Of a stretch of DNA of 32,000 nucleotides, positions 2,405 through 22,987 are shown one piece after another (position 1 is the first letter of the stretch; every line of letters starts with the position of its first letter). Source of the DNA: Methanocaldococcus jannaschii DSM 2661 (GTDB lineage Archaea; AGJL01; Methanococci; Methanococcales; Methanocaldococcaceae). A program made the position numbers and the translations under genes. Location: positions 820,712 to 852,711 of the forward strand of contig NC_000909.1 of NCBI RefSeq assembly GCF_000091665.1, written 5' to 3'. The notes beneath the pieces are model-generated. The model ran no database searches, was not told the origin of the DNA, and saw nothing but the letters and a program-made list of their open reading frames with translations.

Positions 2405-2485
2405 ATTGGATGTTTGGATTGTGAAATTCCATTATATAATTTAGTGATATAATATAAATATTTTTTGAGATTGAGGTGGCCAAAT

Positions 2486-3136
2486 ATGTTGTTAGACTAT
2501 ATTAAAAGTCGCCGAGGGGCAATTGGTATAGGTACGCTTATCATTTTCATCGCTTTAGTATTAGTCGCTGCAGTAGCAGCGGCAGTTATAATAAACACGG
2601 CAGCCAACCTTCAGCACAAAGCTGCGAGGGTTGGTGAGGAAAGTACAAGACAGGTAGCGAGTGGAATACAAGTATTAAAGATTACTGGTTATGCGGTAAA
2701 TACAAAAAATATAACAAAGCTTGCAATACTTGTGTCCCCAAATGTTGGGGATGAAATTGATTTATCATCTACAATAGTTACCATATCAAATGGGGATTAT
2801 AAAGCTTCATTAGTTTATGGAGGACAAATTACTTATGTAAATACTAATGGAACTAGGGACATATTTAATGAATCTTGGCCAAATATTGCCAATCCAACAA
2901 CAGAATTTGGAGTAATTGTCTTACAAGATGCTGATGGTTCTATGAACAATACCGAGCATCCAACAATGAACTTTGGAGATAAAGCCATAATTGCTATAAA
3001 TGTTGGAGATGTGTTTGGAGGTATTATGCCAAGAGAGAGAATATATGGAGAAGTTATTCCAGAATTTGGAGCTTCTGGAATTATCGAGTTTAGAGCACCA
3101 TCAACATTTAGTGAGCATGTAGTTACACTTCAATAA
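2486..3136 (+). CDS. flaB3: Archaellin FlaB3 (divergent third paralog)
   Basis: MLLDYIKSRRG|[30 protein letters not shown] 2486 is preceded by SD GAGGTGG (2473-2479). The TTG at 2465 in the ORF track would overlap the SD, so I reject it. Confidence 0.9.
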   Translation: MLLDYIKSRRGAIGIGTLIIFIALVLVAAVAAAVIINTAANLQHKAARVGEESTRQVASGIQVLKITGYAVNTKNITKLAILVSPNVGDEIDLSSTIVTISNGDYKASLVYGGQITYVNTNGTRDIFNESWPNIANPTTEFGVIVLQDADGSMNNTEHPTMNFGDKAIIAINVGDVFGGIMPRERIYGEVIPEFGASGIIEFRAPSTFSEHVVTLQ

Positions 3137-3187: not shown

Positions 3188-3777
3188 ATGGGGTTAAAAG
3201 ATATAATCGCCTCAATAAAAAATAAGATTCCAAAATTAAAAAAAAAGAAAAAAAATTAGATGAAGGACCTCCTGAAGAGGAGGAAAATTTACTGGAAGAC
3301 CCATTAGAAACTGAAAAATACGAGGAACTTGAACAAACAGTTAAAGACTTAATGGAAACCACAGAAGGTTTGTTAGCGAAAGTTAATGATATTGAATCCA
3401 AACTACCAAAGTTAGAATCTTCAATAAACAACTTAAGAAAAGAAAATGAAATGCTAAGAGTTGAACTTAATAAGATTAATGAAAATTTGCAGGATATAAT
3501 GGCTCTCTATGAAGTTGTATCAAATCAAATAAATCCCTTTATTGGGGTCTCAAAAATTACTGCAACAAGCTTAGAAAAACTTGAGAGATTAGAAACAGAA
3601 TATAAAAGACTTAAAAAAACTGTTGAAGAGCTTACAAATGATTTAATAATTCTTGGTTCTCTCTATTTGCACCAACTTGATATTAATCTTGATGAAATTA
3701 TTGAAGAGGTTTTGGAGGAGGAGATTATAAAGTCAATGTCCGGGGAGGATACTCATGATACAAAAGACAATAAGTGA
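3188..3777 (+). CDS. flaC: Archaellum accessory protein FlaC (ArlC). Needs a -1 frame change near 3241-3247. The uninterrupted ORF is only 3352-3777.
   Basis: SD AAGGTGA (3175-3181) lies 6 nt before ATG 3188. That frame reads MGLKDIIASIKNKIPKLKKKKKN* and stops at 3257. The -1 frame is open from 3226 with no ATG/GTG/TTG until 3352 and encodes the coiled-coil body. Position between flaB3 and flaD fits flaC. ATG 3352 has no SD. Confidence 0.75.
3238..3256 (+). other. A9-G-A8 slippery tract (A_AAA_AAG in phase at 3241-3247) at the flaC frame junction
   Basis: Zero-frame codons are TTA AAA AAA AAG AAA AAA AAT TAG. The -1 frame resumes at GAA 3247. A GC-rich hairpin CCTCCT-GAAG-AGGAGG follows at 3268-3283. 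Confidence 0.6.
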
Positions 3778-4783: not shown

Positions 4784-4839
4784 AAATATGCTATTAAGAT
4801 TATAAGCTTATCTAAAAAATTGTGGGGGAGGTGTTTAAA

Positions 4840-5244
4840 ATGGATGGATTAGCTTCAACAATATTGGAAGTTCATAAACCTGCTAAATTAGAGGACATTC
4901 CTGATGAGGACCCAATTGCGATTATATTAGCATTAAAATGGTTGGAGTATTTATGTGAGAGAGCAGGCGTTGAAAATGTGTCTGATATATTAGATTTCTA
5001 CTACATGTTAGGATGGCTGGGAGATAAAGCATTAGCAAAACTATTAAAATTCTTAAAGGGAATAAAAGTTGATGAAGAAAATGTAGTGGAAGGGTCAGGG
5101 AAATTAAATATTACTGACCATATAATATCACTTCTATTCATTGAAAGATTAAATGGAAAAAAGATATCTGCTGAACTATTAGATAAAATTGAATGGGAAT
5201 TAAGAAAAATAAAGAAGGGGGCTGAACAGTTCTATGGGATTTAG
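4840..5244 (+). CDS. flaE: Archaellum accessory protein FlaE (ArlE)
   Basis: ATG 4840 lies 6 nt after SD GGGGAGGTG (4825-4833). The product is 134 aa and paralogous to the FlaD C-terminus. The GTG at 4822 in the ORF track is rejected. Confidence 0.9.
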   Translation: MDGLASTILEVHKPAKLEDIPDEDPIAIILALKWLEYLCERAGVENVSDILDFYYMLGWLGDKALAKLLKFLKGIKVDEENVVEGSGKLNITDHIISLLFIERLNGKKISAELLDKIEWELRKIKKGAEQFYGI

Positions 5245-5653
5245 TTCAGTAGTAGGGGCAACAGTAATGATTATTGCATTGCTTGTATGTGGAGCATATC
5301 TTTATGTGACAATGGACAGTTATTATGAAAATGTTGATGAGGCTTATACAACGTATTACAGCCATGTACATGCCAAATTAAATGAAAAGTTAGTAATTAC
5401 TGATGTTAAAAGCAGTACATCCCAAACAAATATAACCATCTATAATAACGGTTCAGTTGTAGTAGAACCGGACAAATTTACCATACTGTTTGATGGCACT
5501 GTAGTGCCAGAAGAAAATATTTCTTATTATCCTAAACTGAAAAAGTATCTCGTCCCATTGGATAGTATAACGATTGTAGTAAATTGGACACAGCCGAGTA
5601 GGATATGTATAGTTTCAGATAATGGTAATAAGTATTTCTATTCATTAACATAA
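5234..5653 (+). CDS. flaF: Archaellum stator/S-layer-binding protein FlaF (ArlF)
   Basis: MGFSSVVGATVMIIALLV is an archaellin-like hydrophobic N-terminus followed by a beta-rich domain. Overlaps flaE by 11 nt. Operon position fits flaF. Confidence 0.85.
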   Translation: MGFSSVVGATVMIIALLVCGAYLYVTMDSYYENVDEAYTTYYSHVHAKLNEKLVITDVKSSTSQTNITIYNNGSVVVEPDKFTILFDGTVVPEENISYYPKLKKYLVPLDSITIVVNWTQPSRICIVSDNGNKYFYSLT

Positions 5654-5758
5654 ACTTGGCGACCCCTGCATGATTTATTATTATTTCATATTAATTACTT
5701 CATCACATTTACTTCTTTATTAAAAAATTAAAGATAAATCTGACTTGGTGGGTTTAGG

Positions 5759-6223
5759 GTGATTTATTTGGCATCAAGTGCAATGTCTGAAATAGTTATG
5801 TTCGTTGCTGTGTTGTTAATCGCTGCATTTGTAGCAGGGATTTTAACGACCTCTACCTATAAGATTTCTTTAAATATTAATAAAAAGGGTGATGCATTAG
5901 CTACAAAGCTATCTCAAGATTTTGAGATTATAAATGATCCAGGAGATATTGTTAGAAATTCTTCAGCAGGTACTATTGCCCTTTACATTAAAAATACTGG
6001 TAAAGACCCAATTATATTTACGAATGATTCATTTACAGTAATTATTGATGGAAGTATTGTAGAAATAAATACTACTAATCAGTTAACATCTCCTGGGAGT
6101 AATATATTATCTCCTGGAGATGTGGGGGAGATTGTTGTAAATTATAACGAAACTGGATACCATAGGATAAAAGTTATTTCTGAATGTGGGATTTCAAGGA
6201 TAATTAGGGGTTATATTTCCTAA
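5759..6223 (+). CDS. flaG: Archaellum protein FlaG (ArlG)
   Basis: Hydrophobic N-terminus SEIVMFVAVLLIAAFVAGILT. The start is ambiguous: GTG 5759, TTG 5768 (5 nt after SD GGGTGA 5757-5762) or ATG 5783. Confidence 0.85.
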   Translation: MIYLASSAMSEIVMFVAVLLIAAFVAGILTTSTYKISLNINKKGDALATKLSQDFEIINDPGDIVRNSSAGTIALYIKNTGKDPIIFTNDSFTVIIDGSIVEINTTNQLTSPGSNILSPGDVGEIVVNYNETGYHRIKVISECGISRIIRGYIS

Positions 6224-6241
6224 ATTCTTTAGGTGGGGATT

Positions 6242-6934
6242 ATGGAATTAGCAAGAATTGATTTAAGTAGAGATGATTTGGATAAAAGAATTGGGGGTGG
6301 TATTCCACATGGTAGCTTGATAATAATTGAGGGAGAGGAGAGTACAGGTAAATCTGTCTTATGCCAGAGGTTGGCATATGGATTTTTACAGAATAGATAC
6401 TCAGTAACATACGTTTCTACTCAACTCACAACTTTAGAATTTATAAAACAGATGAATTCTTTGAATTATTCAATCAATAAAAAGTTGTTATCAGGAGCTT
6501 TATTATATATTCCAGTTTATCCGCTAATTGCTGATAATAAAAAAAAGGATGGATTTTTAAAAAAAGTTATGGAAACAAGAGCATTTTATGAAAAAGATGT
6601 TATCATATTTGATTCAATATCTGCATTAATTGCAAACGATGCCAGTGAAGTTAATGTTGATGATTTAATGGCTTTTTTTAAGAGAATTACAGCTTTAAAG
6701 AAAATAATAATTTGCACAGTAAATCCAAAAGAATTGCCAGAATCGGTTTTAACTATTATAAGAACATCAGCAACAATGTTAATAAGAACTGAGTTATTTA
6801 CATTTGGGGGGGATTTAAAGAACTTAGCCAAGATATTAAAATACAATATGGCTCCTGGGTCATATCAGAAAAATATTGTGTTTAGAGTTGAGCCTAAGAT
6901 TGGTATCGCTGTTGAAATTGCATCTGTTGCATAA
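6242..6934 (+). CDS. flaH: RecA/KaiC-like ATP-binding protein FlaH (ArlH)
   Basis: Walker A GEESTGKS. ATG 6242 lies 5 nt after SD AGGTGG (6231-6236). Confidence 0.9.
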   Translation: MELARIDLSRDDLDKRIGGGIPHGSLIIIEGEESTGKSVLCQRLAYGFLQNRYSVTYVSTQLTTLEFIKQMNSLNYSINKKLLSGALLYIPVYPLIADNKKKDGFLKKVMETRAFYEKDVIIFDSISALIANDASEVNVDDLMAFFKRITALKKIIICTVNPKELPESVLTIIRTSATMLIRTELFTFGGDLKNLAKILKYNMAPGSYQKNIVFRVEPKIGIAVEIASVA

Positions 6935-6955
6935 TTGTAGATTTTGGTGATAATA

Positions 6956-8599
6956 ATGAGTGAAGCGGAATTAAAAGAAGCAATGAAACGAAATCCGCAT
7001 TTACGAAGATACATCGAGAACTTTAAAAGAACCTATATGCGAATCCCAGACTTTATGGTCTCACTCTCAAGAGAATTAAAGGAGCTAAAATATCCAAATA
7101 TTATCTATCCCGTTGGAGACCCAATCTTTATTCATATATTTGGAACTCCAGAAACAAAGACAAAATATATCGTTATTGAACCAACATTAGAAACTGCCGA
7201 AGAAAAATTAAAGTATAAAATGATATTAAACAAAATTTTAGAGCTCGCCCCTTATGAAGAAACTCCTAAGAGTGTAGAAGAGTTTGAAGAGGTTTTAACG
7301 AGATTATTTAATGCCTGTACAAAGGTTACTGAGGCAGTTGGGGAGGAGGGGTTTTTTCAAAGAATATTTAGGTTTGCAGACAATAAAATTAAAATCACAC
7401 CAGAGGAGAGAGATAAATTCCTTTACATATTAAAGAGGGATTTAATAGGTTTAGGTAATCTTGAGCCCATTGGTAGAGACCCATACTTAGAGGATATTCA
7501 CGTTATCGGTCCAAAAAATTGTCATGTTGTTCACAAAATTTTTGGAATGTTACCTACAAATATTACATGGGAAGATGAGATTGAACTTGCAGATTATTTA
7601 AAAAATTTAGGAGAACGAATGGGTAGGCCAGTTTCAGATGCTAACCCAATAGTTGATGGAACACTACCAGATGGTTCAAGGATTAACATTATCTACTCTA
7701 CAGATGTCTCTCCAAAGGGTCCATCATTTACAATTAGGAAATTCACAGATGTTCCTATCAGTGTTACACAACTTATTAGCTGGGGGACATTCTCAACTGA
7801 AGTTGCAGCATATTTATGGCTATGTTTAGAGTATGGTATGAGTATCTTTATTTGTGGGGAGACAGCATCAGGTAAAACAACAACATTAAACGCAATCTTA
7901 CCATTTATAAAACCAAATTCAAAGATATTCTCTTGTGAAGACACTCCAGAAGTTAAACCACCTCATCCAGTATGGCAGCAGTTAGTTACAAGAGAGAGAG
8001 GGCCAGAGGAGAGTAGAGTTACACTCTTTGATTTGTTGAGGGCTGCATTGAGGTCAAGACCTAACTATATTATTGTTGGAGAGATTAGAAGTGTCGAGGC
8101 AGCAGTTGCTTTCCAGGCTATGCAGACTGGACACCCTGTTCTCTCAACTTTCCACGCAGCTAATGTTAGAAAGATGATACAGAGGTTGAATGGAGACCCA
8201 ATCAATGTCCCATTAACATTTATGGATAACTTAAACGTTGCACTCTTCCAGCTTGCCGTCTATCAGAGAGGTAAGGTTTTGAGAAGAGTAGTTTCTATTG
8301 AAGAAATTGAGGGGTATTATAAAGAGGTAGATGGAGTCGTTACAAGGGCGGTGTTCCAATGGGAGCCAGATAAAGACAGGCATGTATTTACTGGAAGAAA
8401 TAACAGTTATGTCTTAGAGGAGAAGATAGCTAAGGCAGCGGGATATGAAGACCCAAGAGATATTTACAATGAGTTAGAATTAAGAGCAAGAATCTTAGAG
8501 GAAATGATTGCAAGAGAAATTTTCGATTACTACCAAGTTAGAGATATAATATGGGCATTTTACGAAAAAGGATTGGAGGGACTTCCATTCCCAATCTGA
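6956..8599 (+). CDS. flaI: Archaellum motor ATPase FlaI (ArlI), type II/IV secretion ATPase family
   Basis: Walker A GETASGKTT. The block IIVGEIRSVEAAVAFQAMQTGH is typical of VirB11/PilB-like ATPases. ATG 6956 follows SD GGTGA (6946-6950). Confidence 0.95.
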   Translation: MSEAELKEAMKRNPHLRRYIENFKRTYMRIPDFMVSLSRELKELKYPNIIYPVGDPIFIHIFGTPETKTKYIVIEPTLETAEEKLKYKMILNKILELAPYEETPKSVEEFEEVLTRLFNACTKVTEAVGEEGFFQRIFRFADNKIKITPEERDKFLYILKRDLIGLGNLEPIGRDPYLEDIHVIGPKNCHVVHKIFGMLPTNITWEDEIELADYLKNLGERMGRPVSDANPIVDGTLPDGSRINIIYSTDVSPKGPSFTIRKFTDVPISVTQLISWGTFSTEVAAYLWLCLEYGMSIFICGETASGKTTTLNAILPFIKPNSKIFSCEDTPEVKPPHPVWQQLVTRERGPEESRVTLFDLLRAALRSRPNYIIVGEIRSVEAAVAFQAMQTGHPVLSTFHAANVRKMIQRLNGDPINVPLTFMDNLNVALFQLAVYQRGKVLRRVVSIEEIEGYYKEVDGVVTRAVFQWEPDKDRHVFTGRNNSYVLEEKIAKAAGYEDPRDIYNELELRARILEEMIAREIFDYYQVRDIIWAFYEKGLEGLPFPI

Positions 8600-16205: not shown

Positions 16206-16318
16206 ACCATCCACCAAATTTTTATTATAAAAAGTGATAAAAAGATGATAAATTAAATAATAAACTAAAGATATTGTTAAGTTAATTAAGATTTTATTTA
16301 ATATAATTGGTGATACTT

Positions 16319-19300
16319 ATGATAAAGATTGGCTTTGTTTCAACAATAGATAGTGATGATTTAGTTTTTGAAGAAGCATATAAAGAGATTAAAAAATATG
16401 GCATTGAATTTAAAATATTGGATTATAAATGTAGCAGAAAGGAGTTTGAAGAATTTTTAGAGTTTATTAAAGAAGCTAATATTGTTTTTACAAAACTCAT
16501 GGGAGGGAAAAATGCCTTCAAGTATTACGATGAATTGGCTGAGTTTTGTAAAAGGCATAACATCCCATTTCTCCCTCTACCAACAATCTCAGAAATTCAT
16601 CCAGATTTAGAGAAGGATAGGACAGTAGATGATGACGTAAAGAATAAAGTTGTCAAATATTTGGGATATGAAGGGGTTTATAATTACAAAAATCTTCTTT
16701 TATATTTGGCAAATAGGTTTGGAAATTTAAATGTTGAGTATGAAGAACCAAGACCAATGCCATGGCAAGGAATTTACTATAAAGGAAAATACTTTGAAAC
16801 ATTAGATGATTATCTAAACTATCTAAAAGAATTGGGCAGAGATTTAGATAAACCAATTATAGGAGTTTTATTTTATAGAAATTGGTTTGTAGCTAATAAC
16901 ATTGATTATGTTAATGATTTGATTGATATTATTGAGAATAAAGGAGCTATTCCAATAGCTGTTTTTAGCTCTCATTTAAAGAACGAACTCGGCTCTATAG
17001 GAACTTTAGAAACATTCAAAAGATTTTTCTACAAAGATGGGAAGCCAATAGTTCATGCCTTAATTAACACTACCATGTTCACTCTTTCAATGGGTGTTAA
17101 GGCAGAGTTGTTAAAAGATGAGCCGGAGTTTTTGAAAGAGCTTAATGTTCCAATACTGCAGGGGATTATATCAACTGGATTTATTGAGGATTGGAAAAAG
17201 TCAGTATCTGGATTAAATCCAATTGATTTAATTATAGGAATGGCAATGCCAGAGTTTGATGGGGCAATAATACATTTCCCAATTGGTGGGAAGGAGAAGA
17301 TAAAAGATGGAGAAGTTGGAGTTCCAATTATTAAGTATAGAGCTATAAGAGATAGAGCTGAGAAGATAGTTGATTTAGCCCTAAGATATGCAAATTTAAA
17401 ATTAAAGTCAAATAAAGATAAAAAAATAGCCATAATTTTCCACAATTATCCACCAAGGAATGACAAGATAGCAAGTGCCTTTGGTTTAGATAGCCCAGAG
17501 AGTGTTGTTAATATTTTGAAGGAGATGAAGAAAAGAGGATTTATAGTTGATGAGATTCCAAAGAATGGAACTGAGTTAATAAAAAAGATGTTAAACTATG
17601 CCACAAATGATAAGAGATTTCTAACTGAAGAGATGATAAAAAAAGCAGTTGGAAAAGTAAAAAAAGAAGATTACGAGAAGTGGTTTAACTCTCTGTCTGA
17701 AAAGGTTAAGCAAGAGCTAATAAAAAATTGGGGAGCCATTCCTGGAGATGTTATGAACTTCGATGGAGAGCTAATAATCCCAGGAATAATTAATGGAAAT
17801 GTCTTTATCTCAGTTCAGCCACCAAGAGGATTTGGAGAGAATCCCTCTGCCATATACCACTCTCCAGATTTGCCACCAACTCATTACTATATAGCATTTT
17901 ATAAATGGATTAAGGATGTTTTCAAAGCAGATGCAATTATGCATATAGGAAAGCATGGAAACTTAGAATGGCTTCCTGGGAAGTGTGTTGGCTTATCTAA
18001 TGAATGCTATCCAGACATCTGCATGGAATTGCCAAATATTTATCCATTTATTGTAAATAATCCTGGAGAAGGAACTCAAGCAAAGAGGAGGAGTTATGCA
18101 ACAATTATAAGCCATTTAATCCCACCAATGACAATATCTGATTTGTATGGTGATTTAGTAGAGTTAGAAAAGAGTATTGATGACTATTATGAAACAGAGA
18201 ATAAAGAGAAAAAAGAATTTTTAAAGAAAGAGATTTTAAAGAAGATTAAAGAGCTAAAATTAGATGAAGATTTGTTGGATGGAAAAGTTATAGATGAAGA
18301 GATAAATGATGAGAATTTTGAAAAACTCCTAAATAAAATCCACGATTACTTAGAAACTTTAAAGAATAGGCAGATAAATGATGGATTGCATATAATGGGA
18401 GTCCCATTGGAAGGAGATAAGTTAGTTAATATGTTATTCATGATTATTAGGTATCAATTCAACTATTTGGAGATTTTGGCAGAGATTTTAGATTACAGTT
18501 GGGAAGAGTTAAATGAAAATAAAGGAAAGTATCACAAAATCTTAGATGAAATAAATGAAATAGGATTAAATCTACTAAAAGAGTATATGCAATACAACTT
18601 CGATGAAAATAAGATTGATGAGCTAAAAACAGTTAAAATAAACTCTAAATTAAGGGATGTCTTAAAAACCGTCTCGACAATCTATAAAAATCTAATGAAA
18701 GTTGATGAAGAGATTATAAATGCAGTAAATGCCTTAGAGGGTTTTTACATCCCTCCAAGAGTTGCAGGAGCTCCTACGAAAGATATAAACTGCCTTCCAA
18801 CTGGAAGGAACTTTTATTCATGTAATCCGCAAGAGATTCCAACAAAATCTGCATATGAGATGGGTAAAAAATTGGCTGAGGACTTAATTAACAAGTATCT
18901 AAAAGAAGAAGGGAAATATCCTGAATATATAGGCGTTATCGTCTGGGGATCTCCAACTATGAGAACAAAAGGAGATGATATTGGAGAGATTTTATATTTA
19001 TTGGGAGTTAAGCCAGTTTGGAATAAGATGGGAAGAGTTGTTGGTTTAGAAGTTATCCCATTGGAAGAGTTAGGGAGACCAAGGATCGATGTAACTTTGA
19101 GAATCTCTGGGTTGTTTAGAGACACTTTTCCAAACGTTGTTGAGCTTATAGATGAAGCAATAAAAATGGTTGCTAATTTAGATGAGCCAGACGAGATGAA
19201 CTATGTAAAGAAGCATTATAGGGAGGAGGTTGAAGAGAAGATAAAGAAGGGTATTGATGAAAAAACAGCCAAAGAAACCTCATTATATAGGATATTCAGT

Positions 19301-20005
19301 GATAAACCGGGTTGTTATGGAGCTGGTGTCTCTCATTTAATAGATGAGAAAAACTGGGAATCAATAGAGGACTTTGCAAAGGTTTATGTTGAATGGGGAG
19401 GCTATGCTTATGGAAAGGGCTATTATGGAGTAGAGGCAAAAGAAGAGTTTATAAATCGTCTATCAAAGATTGAATTAACAGTTAAAAATGAAGATAGCCA
19501 AGAATGGGATATATTTGAGGGGGATGACTTCAACAGCTATCATGGTGGTTTAATTGCCTCTGTAACCTATTACTCTGGCAAAAAGCCAGTGAGTTATGTT
19601 GGAGATACATCAAATCCAAATGATATAAGAACAAAACATCTAAAAGAAGAAGGAAAAGAAATATTCAGAACAAAAATCATGAATCCAAAGTGGATTGAGG
19701 GAATGAAGAGGCATGGATATAAAGGAGCCGCTGACTTTTCAAAGTATGTTGATCATATGTTTGCATGGGATGCAACCTCTGGCATAATAGACGATTGGAT
19801 GTATGAGAAGATTGCTGAGAAGTATGTGTTTGATAAAGATATGGAAGAGTTTTTTAAAGAAAATAATCCTTATGCTCTGCTAAATATAACTGAAAGGTTG
19901 TTGGAGGCAATAGAGAGAGGAATGTGGAAGGCAGATGAGGAGATGAAAGAGAAGTTAAGGAAGAAGTATTTAGAAATAGAGGGAATGATTGAGGAAAAAC
20001 TATAA
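16319..20005 (+). CDS. cobN: Class I chelatase large subunit, CobN/ChlH/BchH family
   Basis: About 1228 aa. The blocks HIGKHGNLEWLPGK, NNPGEGTQAKRR and YYIPPRVAGAPT are characteristic of CobN/BchH. ATG 16319 follows SD GGTGA. Confidence 0.9.
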   Translation: MIKIGFVSTIDSDDLVFEEAYKEIKKYGIEFKILDYKCSRKEFEEFLEFIKEANIVFTKLMGGKNAFKYYDELAEFCKRHNIPFLPLPTISEIHPDLEKDRTVDDDVKNKVVKYLGYEGVYNYKNLLLYLANRFGNLNVEYEEPRPMPWQGIYYKGKYFETLDDYLNYLKELGRDLDKPIIGVLFYRNWFVANNIDYVNDLIDIIENKGAIPIAVFSSHLKNELGSIGTLETFKRFFYKDGKPIVHALINTTMFTLSMGVKAELLKDEPEFLKELNVPILQGIISTGFIEDWKKSVSGLNPIDLIIGMAMPEFDGAIIHFPIGGKEKIKDGEVGVPIIKYRAIRDRAEKIVDLALRYANLKLKSNKDKKIAIIFHNYPPRNDKIASAFGLDSPESVVNILKEMKKRGFIVDEIPKNGTELIKKMLNYATNDKRFLTEEMIKKAVGKVKKEDYEKWFNSLSEKVKQELIKNWGAIPGDVMNFDGELIIPGIINGNVFISVQPPRGFGENPSAIYHSPDLPPTHYYIAFYKWIKDVFKADAIMHIGKHGNLEWLPGKCVGLSNECYPDICMELPNIYPFIVNNPGEGTQAKRRSYATIISHLIPPMTISDLYGDLVELEKSIDDYYETENKEKKEFLKKEILKKIKELKLDEDLLDGKVIDEEINDENFEKLLNKIHDYLETLKNRQINDGLHIMGVPLEGDKLVNMLFMIIRYQFNYLEILAEILDYSWEELNENKGKYHKILDEINEIGLNLLKEYMQYNFDENKIDELKTVKINSKLRDVLKTVSTIYKNLMKVDEEIINAVNALEGFYIPPRVAGAPTKDINCLPTGRNFYSCNPQEIPTKSAYEMGKKLAEDLINKYLKEEGKYPEYIGVIVWGSPTMRTKGDDIGEILYLLGVKPVWNKMGRVVGLEVIPLEELGRPRIDVTLRISGLFRDTFPNVVELIDEAIKMVANLDEPDEMNYVKKHYREEVEEKIKKGIDEKTAKETSLYRIFSDKPGCYGAGVSHLIDEKNWESIEDFAKVYVEWGGYAYGKGYYGVEAKEEFINRLSKIELTVKNEDSQEWDIFEGDDFNSYHGGLIASVTYYSGKKPVSYVGDTSNPNDIRTKHLKEEGKEIFRTKIMNPKWIEGMKRHGYKGAADFSKYVDHMFAWDATSGIIDDWMYEKIAEKYVFDKDMEEFFKENNPYALLNITERLLEAIERGMWKADEEMKEKLRKKYLEIEGMIEEKL

Positions 20006-20053: not shown

Positions 20054-20239
20054 ATGAGCATCGTTCAATCTTATATTACTGATGAAAAAGGAAATATCAA
20101 AGGAGTTATTTTAGATTATAAGACATTTAAGAAAATTGAAGAGTTGTTATTGGATTATGGGCTTTTAAAGGCTATGGAGGAAGTTGAGAATGAGGAAGAA
20201 ATTGATTTAGAAACTGCTAAAAAGTTGTTAGAGCAGTGA
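20054..20239 (+). CDS. relB: Antitoxin of a RelBE-type module
   Basis: 61-aa acidic protein. Its stop overlaps the toxin start (GTGA at 20236-20239). Confidence 0.6.
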
Positions 20240-20511
20240 AACAATGGAAGTATCTTTTAAAAAAATCTTTTATTAAAGATTTAAAGGAGTTACCTAAAAA
20301 TATTCAAGAAAAGATTAAAAAATTAGTTTTTGAAGAGATTCCAAATAAAAATAATCCACCTGAAATTCCCAATGTAAAAAAGCTAAAAGGTGCAGATAGT
20401 TATTATCGAATTAGAGTTGGAGATTATAGAATTGGTTTTAAATATGAAAATGGAAAAATTGTGTTTTATAGAGTTCTACATAGAAAACAAATTTATAAAA
20501 GATTTCCATAA
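20236..20511 (+). CDS. relE: RelE/ParE-family mRNA interferase toxin
   Basis: 91 aa. [32 protein letters not shown] matches the RelE core (R-x-G-D-Y-R ... R..H.R). Confidence 0.8.
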
Positions 20512-20532
20512 ATGAAATTTTTGGTGGTTTAA

Positions 20533-20655
20533 ATGTCAGAGATTATTGAGGTTATTTATGAGGATGGTGTTTTAAAGCCATTAAAACCATTAAAAATAAA
20601 GGATAAAAAGAGATTAAAAATTAAAATTGTTGATGATGATGTTGAAGAATTTTAA
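20533..20655 (+). CDS. DUF104/UPF0165-type small protein (VapB-like putative antitoxin), orphan. Not in the ORF track (40 aa).
   Basis: MSEIIEVIYEDGVLKPLKPLKIKDKKRLKIKIVDDDVEEF. SD GGTGG (20523-20527) lies 5 nt upstream. The IEAIYE-GV-KPL pattern of this family is from memory. Confidence 0.65.
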   Translation: MSEIIEVIYEDGVLKPLKPLKIKDKKRLKIKIVDDDVEEF

Positions 20656-20717
20656 AATCCATGATAATAAAAAAGTGTAAGGGTATTGATATAAAAAATC
20701 AAAAGAGGCATGCTACA

Positions 20718-21698
20718 TTAGAAGTTAATTTCTAAACTCTTACAAATATCTAAGATTTTATCTTTGCTTAACTCTTCTATTTTGTAATACTTAAATCCAA
20801 ATCTATTAGCGATCTCCTTTCCAATCCCAATCTTTATAAATGATTGTGGTTCTGTATCAATTAATATAACGTTAATGCCCTTTTCAGCTATCTTCTCACA
20901 TGCATCAAAAACCTCTTTAACATAATCCTCCTTAACAGCTACATTTGGTTTGAAATCGCTAATTACAATCATTATTGGGATAATATTTGGATTTTTTCTA
21001 ATCTCTCTATCAAAGACCTCATAACTCTTAATAAAGGCATCAGCTAAAGGTGTTTTTCCTCCAGTTGGTAAATCTTTTAATAGTTTCTCTCCCAACTCTA
21101 CTGAAGATGTGAATGGCAAGATTAACTCAGCTTTATCCTTTCTAAATGCAATCATTCCAATTTTATTCCTCTTTTGATATGCATCTAAAAGTAGAGAGAT
21201 TATAGCCCCCTTAGCAGCTTCCATTCTTCTCATTGCTCCCATTGAGCCACTTGCATCAACAACAAATAATATATGGGAGGATATCTTCCTCTGTCTAACT
21301 TTCTCAACAATATCCTCTTTTTCTAAGTAGATGGCTAATTTTTTGTTGGCTTTTTCTCTTCTCTTTTTTTGATGTATTGCCGCTCTTCTAAATGTTGCAT
21401 CGAAGGCAATATCTATAATTTTATCATTAGCAAGTTTAAATTTAATATACCTCCCTCTTCTGCTGTAGCTTTTAATATGCCTTCCAGAACCATATCTATG
21501 GATATTATCTTTAAGTTTGAATTGTATAAGCTTAGGATTTACCTTAACACTCTCATCTATGCCAAAGGTTTGTTCAAAATCTCCAGTAGTATCTTCATTT
21601 TGGTTATTTTGATTATTAGAGTTGTCATTATTATCTCTTTCATCGTTACTGGTTTCTTCCTCAAACTCATTCTTTATTTCATCATGTTTTTTTTTACG
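20718..21698 (-). CDS. chlD: ChlD/BchD-type acidic linker plus vWA (MIDAS) domain. No start codon of its own before 21242. Reached from chlI by a -1 shift.
   Basis: The frame is open for 152 codons upstream of the first ATG (21242) with no ATG/GTG/TTG. That ATG lies inside the MIDAS motif [10 protein letters not shown]. Upstream it encodes the linker [32 protein letters not shown]. The ATG-limited ORF is 20718-21242. Confidence 0.75.
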
Positions 21699-22771
21699 TC
21701 ATCATCTTTATGCTCTTCTTTCTCTTCATTATCTTTATTATTTTGCTGTTTAAATTCATTAATCATCTGCTCCAACTTCTCTTTATTTAGTTGTGGAGGT
21801 TCAAATGGCTTTCTTCTCATTCTATGTGGTAGAGCCAACTCCATAGCCTCTTTAACATCATCTATAGTTACATAAGTTCGTCCATTGTAAGCAGCTAACG
21901 CCTTAGCTGTTCTAACAACGGTTATATCTGCTCTATTTGTCTGAATTCCTAACTCAATACAAACTTTAGATATAAATTCTAAGAGGTCATCACTTATCTC
22001 AACTTTATTTAAAAGCTCTCTTGCTTTAATTATCCTCTCTCTTAATTTGTTCTGCTCTTCCTCAAATTTCTTATAAAATGCCTCTGGATTTTCGTTGAAT
22101 TCCTCAACTCTCTTTATAACCTCTACCCTATCTTTAACATCATTTAATCCTTCAACATCAACCATTAAACCAAATCTATCTAAGATTTGAGGTCTCAACT
22201 CTCCCTCCTCTGGGTTCATAGTCCCTACTAATATAAATCTTGAAGGATGCTTTATCTTAACTCCTTCTCTCTCAATGATATTCCAACCCATTGCTGCAGC
22301 ATCCAACAAAACATCAATTATATGGTCATCCAGTAAATTAACTTCATCAATGTATAGGATATTTCTATTTGCCTCTGCTAAAATTCCTGGCTCTAATGCT
22401 TTAATTCCTTCTTTTATTGCCTTCTCTATATCCAATGTTCCGATAACCCTATCTTCAGTAGCTCCAATTGGGAGATTAACTACTTTCATCTTCTTTTTTG
22501 TAGTTTTTAACTCTCCTCTCTTTTTCTTTTCTTTGCAAATATCACATAGGTTTCCATTTGGGTCGCAGTTGAATGGACATCCTTCAACAATTTCAATCTC
22601 TGGGAGTAAATCAGCCAAAGCCCTAACTGCTGTAGATTTCGCTGTCCCTTTCTCTCCTCTAATTAAGACACCACCAATCTTTGGATTTATTGCATTTAAG
22701 ATCAATGCTTTTTTCATCTTTTCCTGTCCAACTATTGCTGTAAATGGGTAAATATACTGCATAATCATCAC
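21674..22771 (-). CDS. chlI: AAA+ chelatase subunit ChlI/BchI homolog
   Basis: [16 protein letters not shown], Walker [10 protein letters not shown], Walker [10 protein letters not shown], and the arginine-finger region. Start is GTG 22771 or ATG 22768/22762. Confidence 0.9.
21687..21695 (-). other. A9 tract (coding strand) at the chlI / chlD frame junction
   Basis: The minus strand reads GAC GTA AAA AAA AAC ATG ATG AAA TAA in the chlI frame. The -1 frame reads (TGA) CGT AAA AAA AAA CAT GAT GAA... Confidence 0.6.
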
Positions 22772-22987
22772 ACTTTTAATGGTTTTAATAGAAGATTTTA
22801 ATAATATTTAATATTAATTTTTTATTTTTATGAGTATTATAATACTTTTTACGTTATTTTAGGTAGGCATTAACTTATATTTAAACGTTAATGTTGCTGA
22901 GATAAAATTAATTTTAATAATGGCTGAGATGGAAAGATAAAAAAAGTTTGTTAATAAAATTAATATGTCAATTTTATGGTGAAATCA

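What the first reader, a model, noticed from the sequence alone, without database searches (positions are those of the whole stretch)
20718..22771. chlI ends on an A9 tract whose -1 frame runs, start-less, through an acidic linker into a vWA domain: ChlI and ChlD possibly from one gene
On the minus strand the AAA+ ChlI ORF ends ...GAC GTA AAA AAA AAC ATG ATG AAA TAA (stop at 21676-21674). The downstream vWA ORF has its first ATG at 21242, in the middle of the MIDAS motif ([10 protein letters not shown]). Its frame stays stop-free for 152 more codons up to 21698 and contains no ATG, GTG or TTG. That stretch encodes an acidic, N/Q-rich linker. AAA+ module, acidic linker and vWA domain is the BchD/ChlD architecture. 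The two frames overlap by 25 nt centred on the A9 run (21695-21687). Standard decoding gives the 365-aa ChlI. A -1 ribosomal slip on A_AAA_AAA, or one extra A added by polymerase slippage, gives a ChlD-like protein of about 684 aa whose N-terminal module is ChlI itself. I recall comparative-genomics work proposing that chlD genes next to cobN can make both the small and medium chelatase subunits by programmed frameshifting. I cannot verify whether this locus was part of that work. The alternative is a homopolymer sequencing error or a genuine pseudogene.
Basis: partly seen in the sequence, partly recalled or inferred. Interest (0 to 1): 0.75.

Follow-up and report, generated by a model that had tools for sequence, protein, structure and literature searches.

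The report
Known frameshifted chelatase gene chlI/chlD
In Methanocaldococcus jannaschii, two genes annotated separately (MJ0911 and MJ0910) are really one cobalt-chelatase gene that makes a short and a long subunit by slipping one base back on a run of nine A's, but this recoding family was already described in 2013 and 2020.

Summary
The window is M. jannaschii DSM 2661. The ChlI-type ORF MJ0911 ends 25 nt after a -1 frame opens. That frame runs 152 codons without ATG, GTG or TTG into the vWA domain annotated as MJ0910. An A9 tract sits in the overlap.

It is not a sequencing error: four independent assemblies are identical. It is not a pseudogene: the start-less stretch has dN/dS 0.07-0.25. 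All 11 Methanococcales loci examined keep the two-frame layout and an in-phase A-rich slip site: A9 in 8, A10 and A11 in one each, and A_AAA_AAC in M. voltae.

Only the conceptual -1 product passes the curated cut-off of NCBIfam TIGR02442, putative cobaltochelatase, and it matches the profile end to end. cobN (MJ0908) lies next door.

Antonov et al. 2013 listed Methanocaldococcus and Methanococcus in this frameshift cluster. They measured 40% frameshifting in E. coli with a cassette whose core is identical to this one. Antonov 2020 proposed the two-subunits-from-one-gene model.

Still open are in-vivo proof in an archaeon and whether the ribosome or RNA polymerase slips. I found no downstream RNA structure. 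A8, A10 and A11 versions of the tract occur in public read assemblies.

The parts
21674..22771 (-). Zero-frame ORF, MJ0911 (Q58321): the ChlI-type AAA+ small chelatase subunit. It is 365 aa from the GTG at 22771, 364 aa from the ATG at 22768, or 362 aa from the ATG at 22762. The stop TAA is at 21676-21674.
   Evidence: AAA_lid_2, Mg_chelatase, AAA_5; identity to MJ0911; TIGR02030 at 453 bits; PDB ChlI 8osf, E = 9e-116.
21687..21695 (-). A9 slippery tract, read in the zero frame as GU[A AAA AAA AA]C. It contains the in-phase heptamers A_AAA_AAA (21695-21689) and A_AAA_AAC (21692-21686). It is the proposed site of the -1 event, whether ribosomal slip or addition of one A to the mRNA.
   Evidence: The same in-phase motif is present in 11 of 11 Methanococcales loci and in bacterial fs-chlD loci. 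A cassette from strain FS406-22 with an identical core gave 40% frameshifting in E. coli.
21674..21698 (-). 25-nt overlap of the two frames, from the opening of the -1 frame (21698) to the end of the ChlI stop codon (21674). The zero-frame stop lies 3 codons after the last tract codon (AAC).
21243..21698 (-). Start-less part of the -1 frame: 152 codons with no ATG, GTG or TTG. It encodes an acidic, Asn/Gln-rich linker followed by a conserved pre-vWA segment (…[11 protein letters not shown]…[15 protein letters not shown]…). This segment corresponds to the precomputed Pfam PF26791 'AAPxQ' hit in orthologues.
   Evidence: dN/dS is 0.07-0.25 against other Methanocaldococcus species. PF26791 hits are listed.
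20718..21242 (-). The ORF as annotated, MJ0910 (Q58320, 'Uncharacterized protein', 174 aa). It is the C-terminal two-thirds of a vWA / integrin-I domain. Its annotated ATG is the M of the MIDAS motif DASGSM (21257-21240).
   Evidence: VWA_2; invariant D148, S150, S152, T212/T216, D248; BchD 2x31_A, E = 3e-12.
20718..22768 (-). The whole recoded gene. On the minus strand the product is join(22768..21689, 21689..20718), with base 21689 read twice. This gives a 683-aa ChlD-type medium subunit whose AAA+ module is identical to ChlI.
   Evidence: TIGR02442 match end to end, above cut-off; collinear with 56 uninterrupted ChlD ORFs.
16307..20005 (+). cobN (MJ0908), the large chelatase subunit of 1232 aa. 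It is convergent with the chlI/D gene.
   Evidence: CobN-Mg_chel, 1364 bits; TIGR02257 cobalto_cobN, 1045.5 bits against a cut-off of 822. cobN is also adjacent in M. fervens, M. vulcanius, FS406-22, M. aeolicus and L093.

Best explanation
MJ0911 and MJ0910 are one gene, an 'fs-chlD' gene, that yields two subunits of a class I (ATP-dependent) chelatase working with CobN (MJ0908).

Standard decoding stops at 21674 and gives the roughly 41-kDa ChlI-type AAA+ motor subunit. A fraction of expression events shifts to the -1 frame on the tract GU-A AAA AAA AAC. This gives a roughly 78-kDa protein with the same AAA+ module, an acidic linker and a vWA/MIDAS domain, which is the ChlD-type adaptor subunit. 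One mRNA region therefore sets the ratio of the two subunits.

Shown here:
- the anatomy of the two frames;
- its conservation across Methanococcales;
- purifying selection on the start-less stretch;
- full-length family membership of the fused product only.

Shown by others, in E. coli only: 40% shifting on a cassette with an identical core.

Inferred:
- that the shift happens in the archaeon;
- that the enzyme is a cobalt chelatase;
- the level at which the shift occurs.

My commitment on the level: tandem ribosomal -1 slippage on A_AAA_AAA / A_AAA_AAC is the conserved core (about 55%). RNA-polymerase slippage (A9 to A10) adds to it, or dominates, in the species with A9-A11 (about 35% that it is the main source). 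The slippage needs no downstream RNA structure.
For: Anatomy.

Not an error: four independent assemblies (ENA, JGI and two Logan runs) are 100% identical over 20600-22900, or the 2165 bases of it that L082 covers, including the A9 tract.

Conservation: 11 of 11 Methanococcales loci have ChlI in frame 0 and vWA in frame -1, with a 16-34 nt overlap and an in-phase A tract. The tract is A9 in 8, A10 in 1, A11 in 1 and A_AAA_AAC in 1. The preceding codon varies (GTA, TTA, CTA, TCA) but its third base is always A.

No usable start codon:
- M. jannaschii has none in 147 codons up to the MIDAS Asp, M. vulcanius none in 145, and M. aeolicus none in 170.
- Annotators chose inconsistent starts giving 174 to 317 aa. 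At least two are non-canonical: Ile (ATA) annotated as M in P0130, and an Ile start in P0133.

The start-less region is translated: dN/dS is 0.07-0.25 and the residues are conserved.

The fusion is the real protein:
- TIGR02442 scores 814.5 bits, above the 779.45 cut-off, over positions 1-641 of 641. The halves score 541.5 and 264.9.
- 56 of 80 homologous loci elsewhere encode the same architecture as one uninterrupted ORF.

cobN is adjacent.

Literature:
- PMC3711429 describes a cluster of 23 -1 fs-genes that includes Methanocaldococcus and Methanococcus. Frameshifting was 63%, 40% and 10% for A11, A9 and A7.
- The A9 cassette is an exact match to strain FS406-22. It is identical to this window over GATGATGACGTAAAAAAAAACATGATGAAATAA.
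- PMC9227772 lists M. fervens fs-chlD as the source of the small and medium Co-chelatase subunits.
- Reviews PMC5009743 and PMC8211752 repeat the claim.
Against: - No in-vivo or in-vitro archaeal evidence for the 78-kDa product was found. Reviews still say 'presumably', and the only assays were done in E. coli at mesophilic temperature.
- No stimulatory RNA structure lies downstream. Z-scores range from -1.6 to +1.3 at 37 C, nothing folds at 85 C, and nothing is conserved. High-efficiency ribosomal -1 frameshifting usually has such a stimulator.
- M. voltae has only A6, and its -1 frame has a TTG at codon 30 that annotators use as a start. Independent initiation may therefore have replaced or supplemented slippage there.
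- The substrate and metal of a CobN/ChlID enzyme in a strict anaerobe that has CfbA/CbiX-type chelatases are not established (PMC8179277).
- I could not check whether a separate chlI gene exists elsewhere in the genome, because only 32 kb were available.
Confidence: 0.9

Rival explanations
1. The same two-products-from-one-gene logic applies, but the shift is made mainly or only by the archaeal RNA polymerase. It stutters on the A9 template and adds one A. Ordinary translation of the A10 mRNA then gives the fusion, as with Thermus thermophilus dnaX.
For: - Tracts are at least 9 A's in 10 of 11 Methanococcales. Nine is the length at which slippage-prone runs start to be selected against in many genomes (PMC1088944).
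- Efficiency in E. coli rises with tract length: A7 10%, A9 40%, A11 63%.
- No downstream stimulatory structure is present.
- A9 runs are depleted in the window.
- Exact products of A8 (4 contigs), A10 (3 contigs, the 683-aa fusion) and A11 (1 contig) versions exist in Logan read assemblies. All are on contigs of at most 2.4 kb. NCBI, JGI and ENA genome-type records were seen only for the A9 forms.
Against: - M. voltae (A6) and the Pseudomonas-type genes (A7) keep only an in-phase X_XXY_YYZ heptamer. That is too short for efficient transcriptional slippage but canonical for ribosomal slippage.
- The base after the tract is C in 10 of 11 loci, giving A_AAA_AAC, although AAT would be synonymous.
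- The origin of the variant contigs (RNA or DNA, or an RT/PCR artefact) is unknown.
- I know of no report of programmed transcriptional slippage by an archaeal RNA polymerase.
Confidence: 0.35
2. MJ0910 is a separate gene. Its protein starts at a non-canonical codon (for example ATA or ATT) or by termination-reinitiation after the ChlI stop. No frameshift occurs.
For: - Databases annotate it this way. RefSeq and GenBank entries range from 174 to 317 aa. Some use Ile codons as starts, such as P0130 and P0133.
- An ATA in the -1 frame overlaps the ChlI stop codon in M. jannaschii and in FS406-22.
Against: - No candidate start is conserved in position or codon among the 11 loci. M. aeolicus has no ATA in the -1 frame at the stop.
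- The annotated 174-aa protein begins inside the MIDAS motif and lacks the first beta-strand of the vWA fold.
- The conserved element in the overlap is the A tract, not a start codon.
- Homologues elsewhere are single ORFs.
- The E. coli reporter assays included a control for internal initiation.
Confidence: 0.05
3. It is a decaying pseudogene. An ancestral chlD suffered a 1-nt deletion in a homopolymer. Only ChlI is still made and the vWA part is dead.
For: Homopolymers are hot spots for mutation. A single missing base separates the two frames.
Against: - The -1 frame stays open for 308-354 codons in all 11 genomes, which span four genera.
- dN/dS is 0.07-0.25 at dS of 0.55-2.0.
- The MIDAS residues are invariant.
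- The same arrangement occurs in Chloroflexota, Bacteroidales and Deltaproteobacteria.
Confidence: 0.02
4. It is a homopolymer sequencing error. The true genome has A10 and carries a plain fused chlD gene.
For: Three Logan contigs encode exactly the A10 fusion.
Against: - Four independent assemblies and 28 contigs carry A9.
- A8 and A11 variants also occur, so the variants scatter around A9.
- The out-of-frame layout is conserved in all 11 Methanococcales loci examined; the seven named isolate genomes came from different projects.
- A plain fusion would leave the cell with no means of making the small subunit from this locus.
Confidence: 0.01

Closest known systems
Frameshifted chlD (fs-chlD) genes of cobalt chelatase: Antonov et al. 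2013 NAR (PMC3711429), Antonov 2020 Mol Biol Evol (doi 10.1093/molbev/msaa081, not held, known from citations), Kuznetsov et al. 2022 (PMC9227772)
   Same: - It shares the ORF layout, the -1 direction, the A_AAA_AAR-type tract and the neighbouring cobN.
- It shares the proposed logic of small and medium subunits from one gene.
- The genus is named in the 2013 cluster.
- The tested cassettes are the M. fervens orthologue (A11, 63%) and the FS406-22 orthologue (A9, 40%). The latter has a core identical to this locus.
   Different: - Nothing essential differs.
- I could not confirm from the held texts that M. jannaschii itself is on the published lists.
- These papers describe the signal as 'usually' a slippery site plus a downstream RNA structure. 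In Methanococcales I find no such structure.
Bacterial dnaX (tau and gamma subunits of DNA polymerase III)
   Same: - Two products share an N-terminal AAA+ module, and the long one carries extra C-terminal domains.
- The shift site is an A-rich tract: A_AAA_AAG ribosomal -1 frameshifting in E. coli, and A9 transcriptional slippage in Thermus.
- Both gene polarities exist, with either the long or the short product in frame 0 (PMC5009743; PMC1088944).
- The chelatase family also shows both polarities. L062, L041, L053 and L005 have the long form in frame 0 and a stop 1-3 codons after a -1 shift.
   Different: - The protein family and function are unrelated apart from the AAA+ module.
- E. coli dnaX uses an upstream SD-like element and a downstream hairpin as stimulators. 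No downstream hairpin is evident here, and upstream SD-like elements were not formally tested.
Saccharolobus solfataricus fucA1 (alpha-L-fucosidase), the only -1 programmed frameshift reported as demonstrated in an archaeon (PMC8211752)
   Same: - The host is an archaeon.
- The shift is -1 on an A-rich heptamer (A_AAA_AAT there) within a short ORF overlap.
   Different: - fucA1 makes one functional product, at low efficiency (about 5-10%). It has a putative stem-loop and rare codons, and most orthologues are unshifted.
- The chelatase locus has both products functional, a longer tract and no downstream structure. The shift is conserved across a whole order.
Canonical BchD/ChlD (TIGR02031) and CobT medium subunits encoded as ordinary ORFs
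   Same: The architecture is the same: AAA+ module, acidic linker and a vWA/integrin-I domain with MIDAS. It pairs with an I/S-type motor subunit and an H/N-type large subunit.
   Different: - The score against TIGR02031 (474.4) is below its cut-off (499.55). The protein belongs to the sister family TIGR02442.
- Its AAA+ module is the ChlI sequence itself, with intact motifs: Walker A is GEKGTAKS, a variant shared by 83 of 91 family members. It is not the degenerate module I recall for BchD, which is my own knowledge and was not tested.

Membership tests
fs-chlD (programmed -1 frameshift chelatase gene) | An upstream ChlI-like AAA+ ORF and a downstream vWA ORF in the -1 frame that overlap by a few tens of nucleotides | tested here: met
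   The overlap is 25 nt and the vWA frame is -1 relative to ChlI.
fs-chlD (programmed -1 frameshift chelatase gene) | An in-phase A-rich slippery site (A_AAA_AAR-type) in the overlap, conserved among orthologues | tested here: met
   The site GU-A AAA AAA AAC is present in phase in 11 of 11 Methanococcales loci. It is also present in 6 bacterial fs-chlD loci.
fs-chlD (programmed -1 frameshift chelatase gene) | The conceptual fusion is collinear with uninterrupted ChlD proteins | tested here: met
   TIGR02442 matches positions 1-641 of 641 at 814.5 bits, above the 779.45 cut-off. 56 uninterrupted homologues were found.
fs-chlD (programmed -1 frameshift chelatase gene) | cobN is present and no separate small-subunit (chlI or cobS) gene exists in the genome | tested here: inconclusive
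   cobN is adjacent. Absence of a second chlI cannot be checked from a 32-kb window. PMC9227772 Table 1 reports this genotype for M. fervens.
fs-chlD (programmed -1 frameshift chelatase gene) | The frameshift product has been observed experimentally | not testable with these tools
   Published E. coli reporter data give 40% for the FS406-22 cassette, whose core is identical. No archaeal data were found.
fs-chlD (programmed -1 frameshift chelatase gene) | A downstream stimulatory RNA structure (described as usual, not obligatory) | tested here: not met
   The 70 nt downstream of the tract were folded in 11 orthologues. Z-scores were -1.6 to +1.3 at 37 C, all were unfolded at 85 C, and no helix was conserved.
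TIGR02442 putative cobaltochelatase (ChlI/ChlD-type fused medium subunit) | A score above the curated cut-off with full-length coverage | tested here: met
   The fused product scores 814.5 against 779.45. ChlI alone scores 541.5 and the vWA part alone 264.9.
BchD/ChlD magnesium chelatase subunit D (TIGR02031) | A score above the curated equivalog cut-off | tested here: not met
   The score is 474.4 against 499.55. The protein is therefore related, but it is not filed as a Mg-chelatase D subunit.
BchD/ChlD-type architecture | A C-terminal vWA/integrin-I domain with the MIDAS motif DxSxS...T...D | tested here: met
   D148, S150, S152, T212/T216 and D248 are invariant in 14 sequences. Pfam VWA_2 matches. 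PDB 2x31_A (BchD) matches at E = 3e-12.
Programmed transcriptional slippage sites (Thermus dnaX type) | A homopolymer of at least 9 A/T and length heterogeneity of the tract in RNA | tested here: inconclusive
   The tract is at least 9 in 10 of 11 loci. A8, A10 and A11 variants exist in Logan assemblies. I could not establish whether those runs are RNA.

The most novel reading that the evidence does not exclude
In Methanococcales the shift is made mainly by the archaeal RNA polymerase stuttering on the A9-A11 template, not by the ribosome. This would be the first programmed transcriptional slippage documented in Archaea, operating at 85 C where no mRNA structure can help. The A8, A10 and A11 versions of the tract seen only in short Logan contigs would then be its footprint in public RNA-seq data.
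Probability: 0.3. Interest if true: 0.55.

Novelty: already known. Interest (0 to 1): 0.25.

Why it matters
For genome annotation:
- MJ0910 is still listed as 'Uncharacterized protein' (174 aa) and MJ0911 as a separate ChlI homologue.
- Orthologues carry vWA 'genes' with at least nine different invented starts.
- These entries should be merged as one recoded gene.

For biology:
- The case is already in the recoding literature, so confirming it here adds no new principle.
- It remains one of very few candidate cellular -1 recoding events in Archaea, and it has never been verified in an archaeon.
- I recall that M. jannaschii is now genetically tractable (my own knowledge). If so, this locus is a practical place to ask two questions. 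Can a bare A tract drive high-level recoding at 85 C? Is the ribosome or the RNA polymerase responsible?
- It also bears on the unresolved role of CobN-type class I chelatases in strictly anaerobic methanogens.

Tried and rejected
I used them instead to classify architectures. The Methanococcales loci came one by one from the look-up of encoding contigs. P0014 was not on record.
The Logan contigs that carry the A8, A10 and A11 variants could therefore not be fetched.
- Two metagenome-contig scans for the junction sequence found nothing.
- Antonov 2020 is not held. The supplement of PMC9227772 has no species list.
- Full-text searches for MJ0910, MJ0911 and MJ0908 gave no proteomic or transcriptomic evidence. 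A search combining M. jannaschii, frameshift and chelatase gave only an unrelated paper.
- Rfam and tRNA scans of the window found nothing.
- A downstream stimulatory hairpin or pseudoknot was looked for and rejected.
- I glanced at an upstream SD-like stimulator (recurrent GAT codons before the tract). I did not pursue it, because this is simply an acidic linker.
- The Walker A variant GxxGTAKS looked odd but is the family norm, in 83 of 91 members.
- I did not run structure prediction. The sequence-family evidence was already decisive.
Full report
OBSERVATION

On the minus strand the ORF 22771..21674 (365 aa from a GTG; ATGs at 22768 and 22762) ends ...GAC GTA AAA AAA AAC ATG ATG AAA TAA. 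The A9 tract is 21695-21687.

The frame one base back opens at 21698 and stays open to the stop at 20718, a total of 326 codons. Its first ATG/GTG/TTG is the ATG at 21242, which is the M of the MIDAS motif VVDASGSM. This leaves 152 start-less codons and a 25-nt overlap with the upstream ORF.

This is far from chance.
- Among the 31 open frames of at least 150 codons in the window, the start-less lead is 152 codons here. The next largest is 46 and the median is 4.
- Base composition gives about 4e-6 for 152 stop-free codons.
- A9 runs are depleted in the window, with 2 found against 10.4 expected from shuffles. One of the two lies exactly in the overlap.

IDENTITY

Exact protein look-ups show that the window is Methanocaldococcus jannaschii DSM 2661.
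- The upstream ORF is MJ0911 (Q58321, 'Magnesium-chelatase subunit ChlI homolog').
- The 174-aa ATG-initiated ORF is MJ0910 (Q58320, 'Uncharacterized protein').
- The 1232-aa ORF at 16307-20005 on the plus strand is cobN, MJ0908. It scores 1364 bits against Pfam CobN-Mg_chel and 1045.5 bits against TIGR02257, whose cut-off is 822. The locus tag MJ0908 comes from PMC8179277.

Pfam finds AAA_lid_2, Mg_chelatase and AAA_5 in MJ0911, and VWA_2 at residues 143-249 of the -1 frame.

NEITHER AN ERROR NOR A PSEUDOGENE

Four independent assemblies (one ENA, one JGI, two Logan) are 100% identical to the window over 20600-22900, or the 2165 bases of it that L082 covers. All four include the A9 tract.

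I collected orthologous loci from ten other Methanococcales genomes:
- Methanocaldococcus fervens, M. vulcanius, strain FS406-22 and M. villosus;
- Methanococcus aeolicus and M. voltae;
- a Methanothermococcus;
- three genomes or metagenome contigs without species names (L092, L093, L094).

In every one, the ChlI frame ends 16-34 nt after the -1 vWA frame opens.

The start-less stretch is under purifying selection in the -1 frame. dN/dS is 0.07-0.25 against other Methanocaldococcus species and M. aeolicus, at dS of 0.55-2.0. It contains a strongly conserved block (RYSSGRHVKS...DIAFDAT.RA...Q) upstream of the M. jannaschii ATG. It is therefore translated.

No conserved start exists. M. jannaschii, M. 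vulcanius and M. aeolicus have no ATG, GTG or TTG between the frame opening and MIDAS. Annotators have given the orthologues products of 174, 202, 246, 264, 266, 267, 269, 280 and 317 aa. At least two start at Ile codons.

THE FUSED PRODUCT IS THE REAL PROTEIN

The conceptual -1 product (683 aa) matches NCBIfam TIGR02442, 'putative cobaltochelatase', over profile positions 1-641 of 641. It scores 814.5 bits, above the curated cut-off of 779.45. MJ0911 alone scores 541.5 and the vWA part alone 264.9, so both fail.

It scores below the cut-off of the true Mg-chelatase D family TIGR02031 (474.4 against 499.55). I therefore file it with the cobaltochelatase-type family, not with BchD/ChlD proper.

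The MIDAS residues are invariant. PDB matches are ChlI (8osf, E = 9e-116) and the BchD integrin-I domain (2x31_A, E = 3e-12).

Of 80 homologous loci from other archaea and bacteria:
- 56 encode the same AAA+/linker/vWA architecture as one uninterrupted ORF;
- 6 are -1 fs-genes with a short ORF overlap;
- the rest are mainly separate chlI plus full-length chlD pairs.

THE SLIP SITE

All 11 Methanococcales loci carry an A tract in the same phase, xxA AAA AAA AAC.
- A9 occurs in eight.
- A11 occurs in M. fervens (GTA AAA AAA AAA ACA).
- A10 occurs in L092.
- M. voltae has only the heptamer A_AAA_AAC (TCA AAA AAC TAG).

The preceding codon changes identity (GTA, TTA, CTA, TCA) but always ends in A. 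The base after the tract is C in 10 of 11. The zero-frame stop follows within 0-4 codons, and the zero-frame tail is not conserved.

Bacterial fs-chlD loci in my sample have almost the same site. Chloroflexota have GTA AAA AAA AAG, a Bacteroidales MAG has GTA AAA AAA AAA CTG, and a Deltaproteobacterium has GAT AAA AAA AAA GCC.

Some 'uninterrupted' genes keep the tract in the opposite polarity. In L062 (GTA AAA AAA AAC), L041, L053 and L005, the long form is in frame 0 and a -1 shift meets a stop after 1-3 codons. This is the same pair of polarities that is known for dnaX.

WHAT IS ALREADY KNOWN

Antonov et al. 2013 (PMC3711429) described a 'magnesium chelatase' cluster of 23 -1 fs-genes from six genera, including Methanocaldococcus and Methanococcus. 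The genes were annotated as two adjacent genes. The authors measured 63%, 40% and 10% frameshifting in an E. coli GST-MBP reporter for A11, A9 and A7.

Their Table S2 gives the inserts.
- The 63% cassette is an exact match to M. fervens (L089).
- The 40% cassette is an exact match to strain FS406-22 (L091).
- The FS406-22 cassette is identical to this window over GATGATGACGTAAAAAAAAACATGATGAAATAA, and matches at 60 of 77 positions overall.

[quoted passage not shown] The 2022 paper lists M. fervens under exactly this genotype.

Two reviews repeat the case. One of them notes that only one -1 PRF, Saccharolobus fucA1, has actually been demonstrated in Archaea.

MECHANISM

Shown: the two-frame anatomy, its conservation, translation of the start-less stretch, and family membership of the fusion only.

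Shown by others, in E. coli only: high-level shifting on this sequence.

Inferred: that it happens in the archaeon, and at what level.

I tested for a downstream stimulator. The 70 nt after the tract in the 11 orthologues give z-scores between -1.6 and +1.3 at 37 C. Nothing folds at 85 C and no helix is shared. The signal in this order is the bare tract, perhaps helped by the nearby zero-frame stop.

Points for a ribosomal slip:
- M. voltae and the Pseudomonas-type genes keep only an in-phase X_XXY_YYZ heptamer.
- The conserved 3' C gives A_AAA_AAC.

Points for RNA-polymerase slippage:
- The tract is at least 9 A's in 10 of 11 loci.
- Efficiency depends on tract length in E. coli.
- No downstream structure is present.
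- There is also an unexpected database observation, described next.

The exact 683-aa A10 fusion is present in the protein collection from three Logan contigs, the longest 2386 nt. The A8 product (...VKKT*) comes from four contigs, the longest 2396 nt. The A11 product (...VKKKT*) comes from one contig. Products of A6, A7, A12 and A13 are absent.

The A9 form is on 28 contigs, and NCBI, JGI and ENA records were seen only for the A9 forms. About 8 of 36 contigs are therefore off-length, in both directions, and all are short. This would fit heterogeneous transcripts. Two metagenome scans were empty.

I put the ribosome at about 55% and the polymerase at about 35% as the main source. Both mechanisms give the same protein...[12 protein letters not shown]....

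FUNCTION AND CONTEXT

cobN is adjacent in M. jannaschii, M. fervens, M. vulcanius, FS406-22, M. aeolicus and L093, and lies within 4 kb in L092.

In M. voltae and L094 the neighbours are instead CbiZ (both loci) and, in M. voltae, an FecCD/periplasmic-binding-protein transporter. These neighbours also point to corrinoid metabolism.

What a late-insertion-type, ATP-driven chelatase does in a strict anaerobe that has CfbA is not settled. The cobalt assignment rests on family names and gene context, not on any assay.

VERDICT

The feature is real and correctly interpreted, but it is already known. Interest is low to moderate. It lies in the missing in-vivo archaeal proof, in the unresolved ribosome-versus-polymerase question, and in the database annotation that is still split.

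Noticed in passing
Protein collection entries P0136, P0137, P0123 and P0121 (the tract at window 21687-21695): Exact products of A8 (361 aa, 4 contigs), A10 (the 683-aa fusion, 3 contigs) and A11 (362 aa, 1 contig) versions of the M. jannaschii tract exist, from Logan read assemblies only. All are on contigs of at most 2.4 kb. The A9 form is on 28 contigs from JGI, ENA and Logan. This could be transcript heterogeneity or an artefact.
   Followed up: partly
L062:997-1005, L041:6890-6897, L053:477-486, L005:6954-6961: Some 'uninterrupted' chlD genes keep the same slippery tract, for example GTA AAA AAA AAC in an Anaerolineae MAG. Here the long form is in frame 0 and a stop lies 1-3 codons into the -1 frame. 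This is the reverse polarity, in which slippage would make the short ChlI-like product.
   Followed up: partly
window 20054-20655 (+): A RelB-like antitoxin (20054-20239), a ParE toxin (20236-20511) and a 40-aa AF2212-like ORF (about 20533-20655) lie between cobN and the end of the chlI/D gene. In M. fervens the vWA ORF abuts cobN directly, and M. vulcanius has only the AF2212-like ORF. The toxin-antitoxin pair therefore looks like an insertion specific to M. jannaschii.
   Followed up: partly
L086 (Methanococcus voltae) 4838-6966 and L094 4640-6804: In these two genomes no cobN is seen within 6 kb of the chlI/D pair. L086 has CbiZ, an FecCD / periplasmic-binding-protein ABC transporter and Nitro_FeMo-Co/CbiA-ParA genes nearby, and L094 has CbiZ. 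M. voltae also has the shortest slip site (A_AAA_AAC) and a TTG at codon 30 of the -1 frame.
   Followed up: no
window 3238-3246 (+): This is the only other A9 run in the 32-kb window. It lies between the ORFs 2465-3136 and 3352-3777 and is therefore probably intergenic. A9 runs as a class are about five-fold depleted relative to dinucleotide shuffles.
   Followed up: no
window 22654-22631 (-), Walker A of MJ0911: The P-loop reads GEKGTAKS, with Ala where the canonical GxxxxGK[ST] motif has Gly. The variant GxxGTAKS is the norm for this family, in 83 of 91 sequences across archaea and bacteria. It is therefore a family trait and not a defect.
   Followed up: yes
Literature: PMC8179277: That paper lists the M. 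jannaschii 'CobNST' as MJ0908, MJ1438 and MJ1598, and so omits MJ0911/MJ0910. From my own knowledge of cob nomenclature, this probably confuses the Salmonella-type CobS/CobT names with the chelatase subunits. I did not verify this.
   Followed up: no
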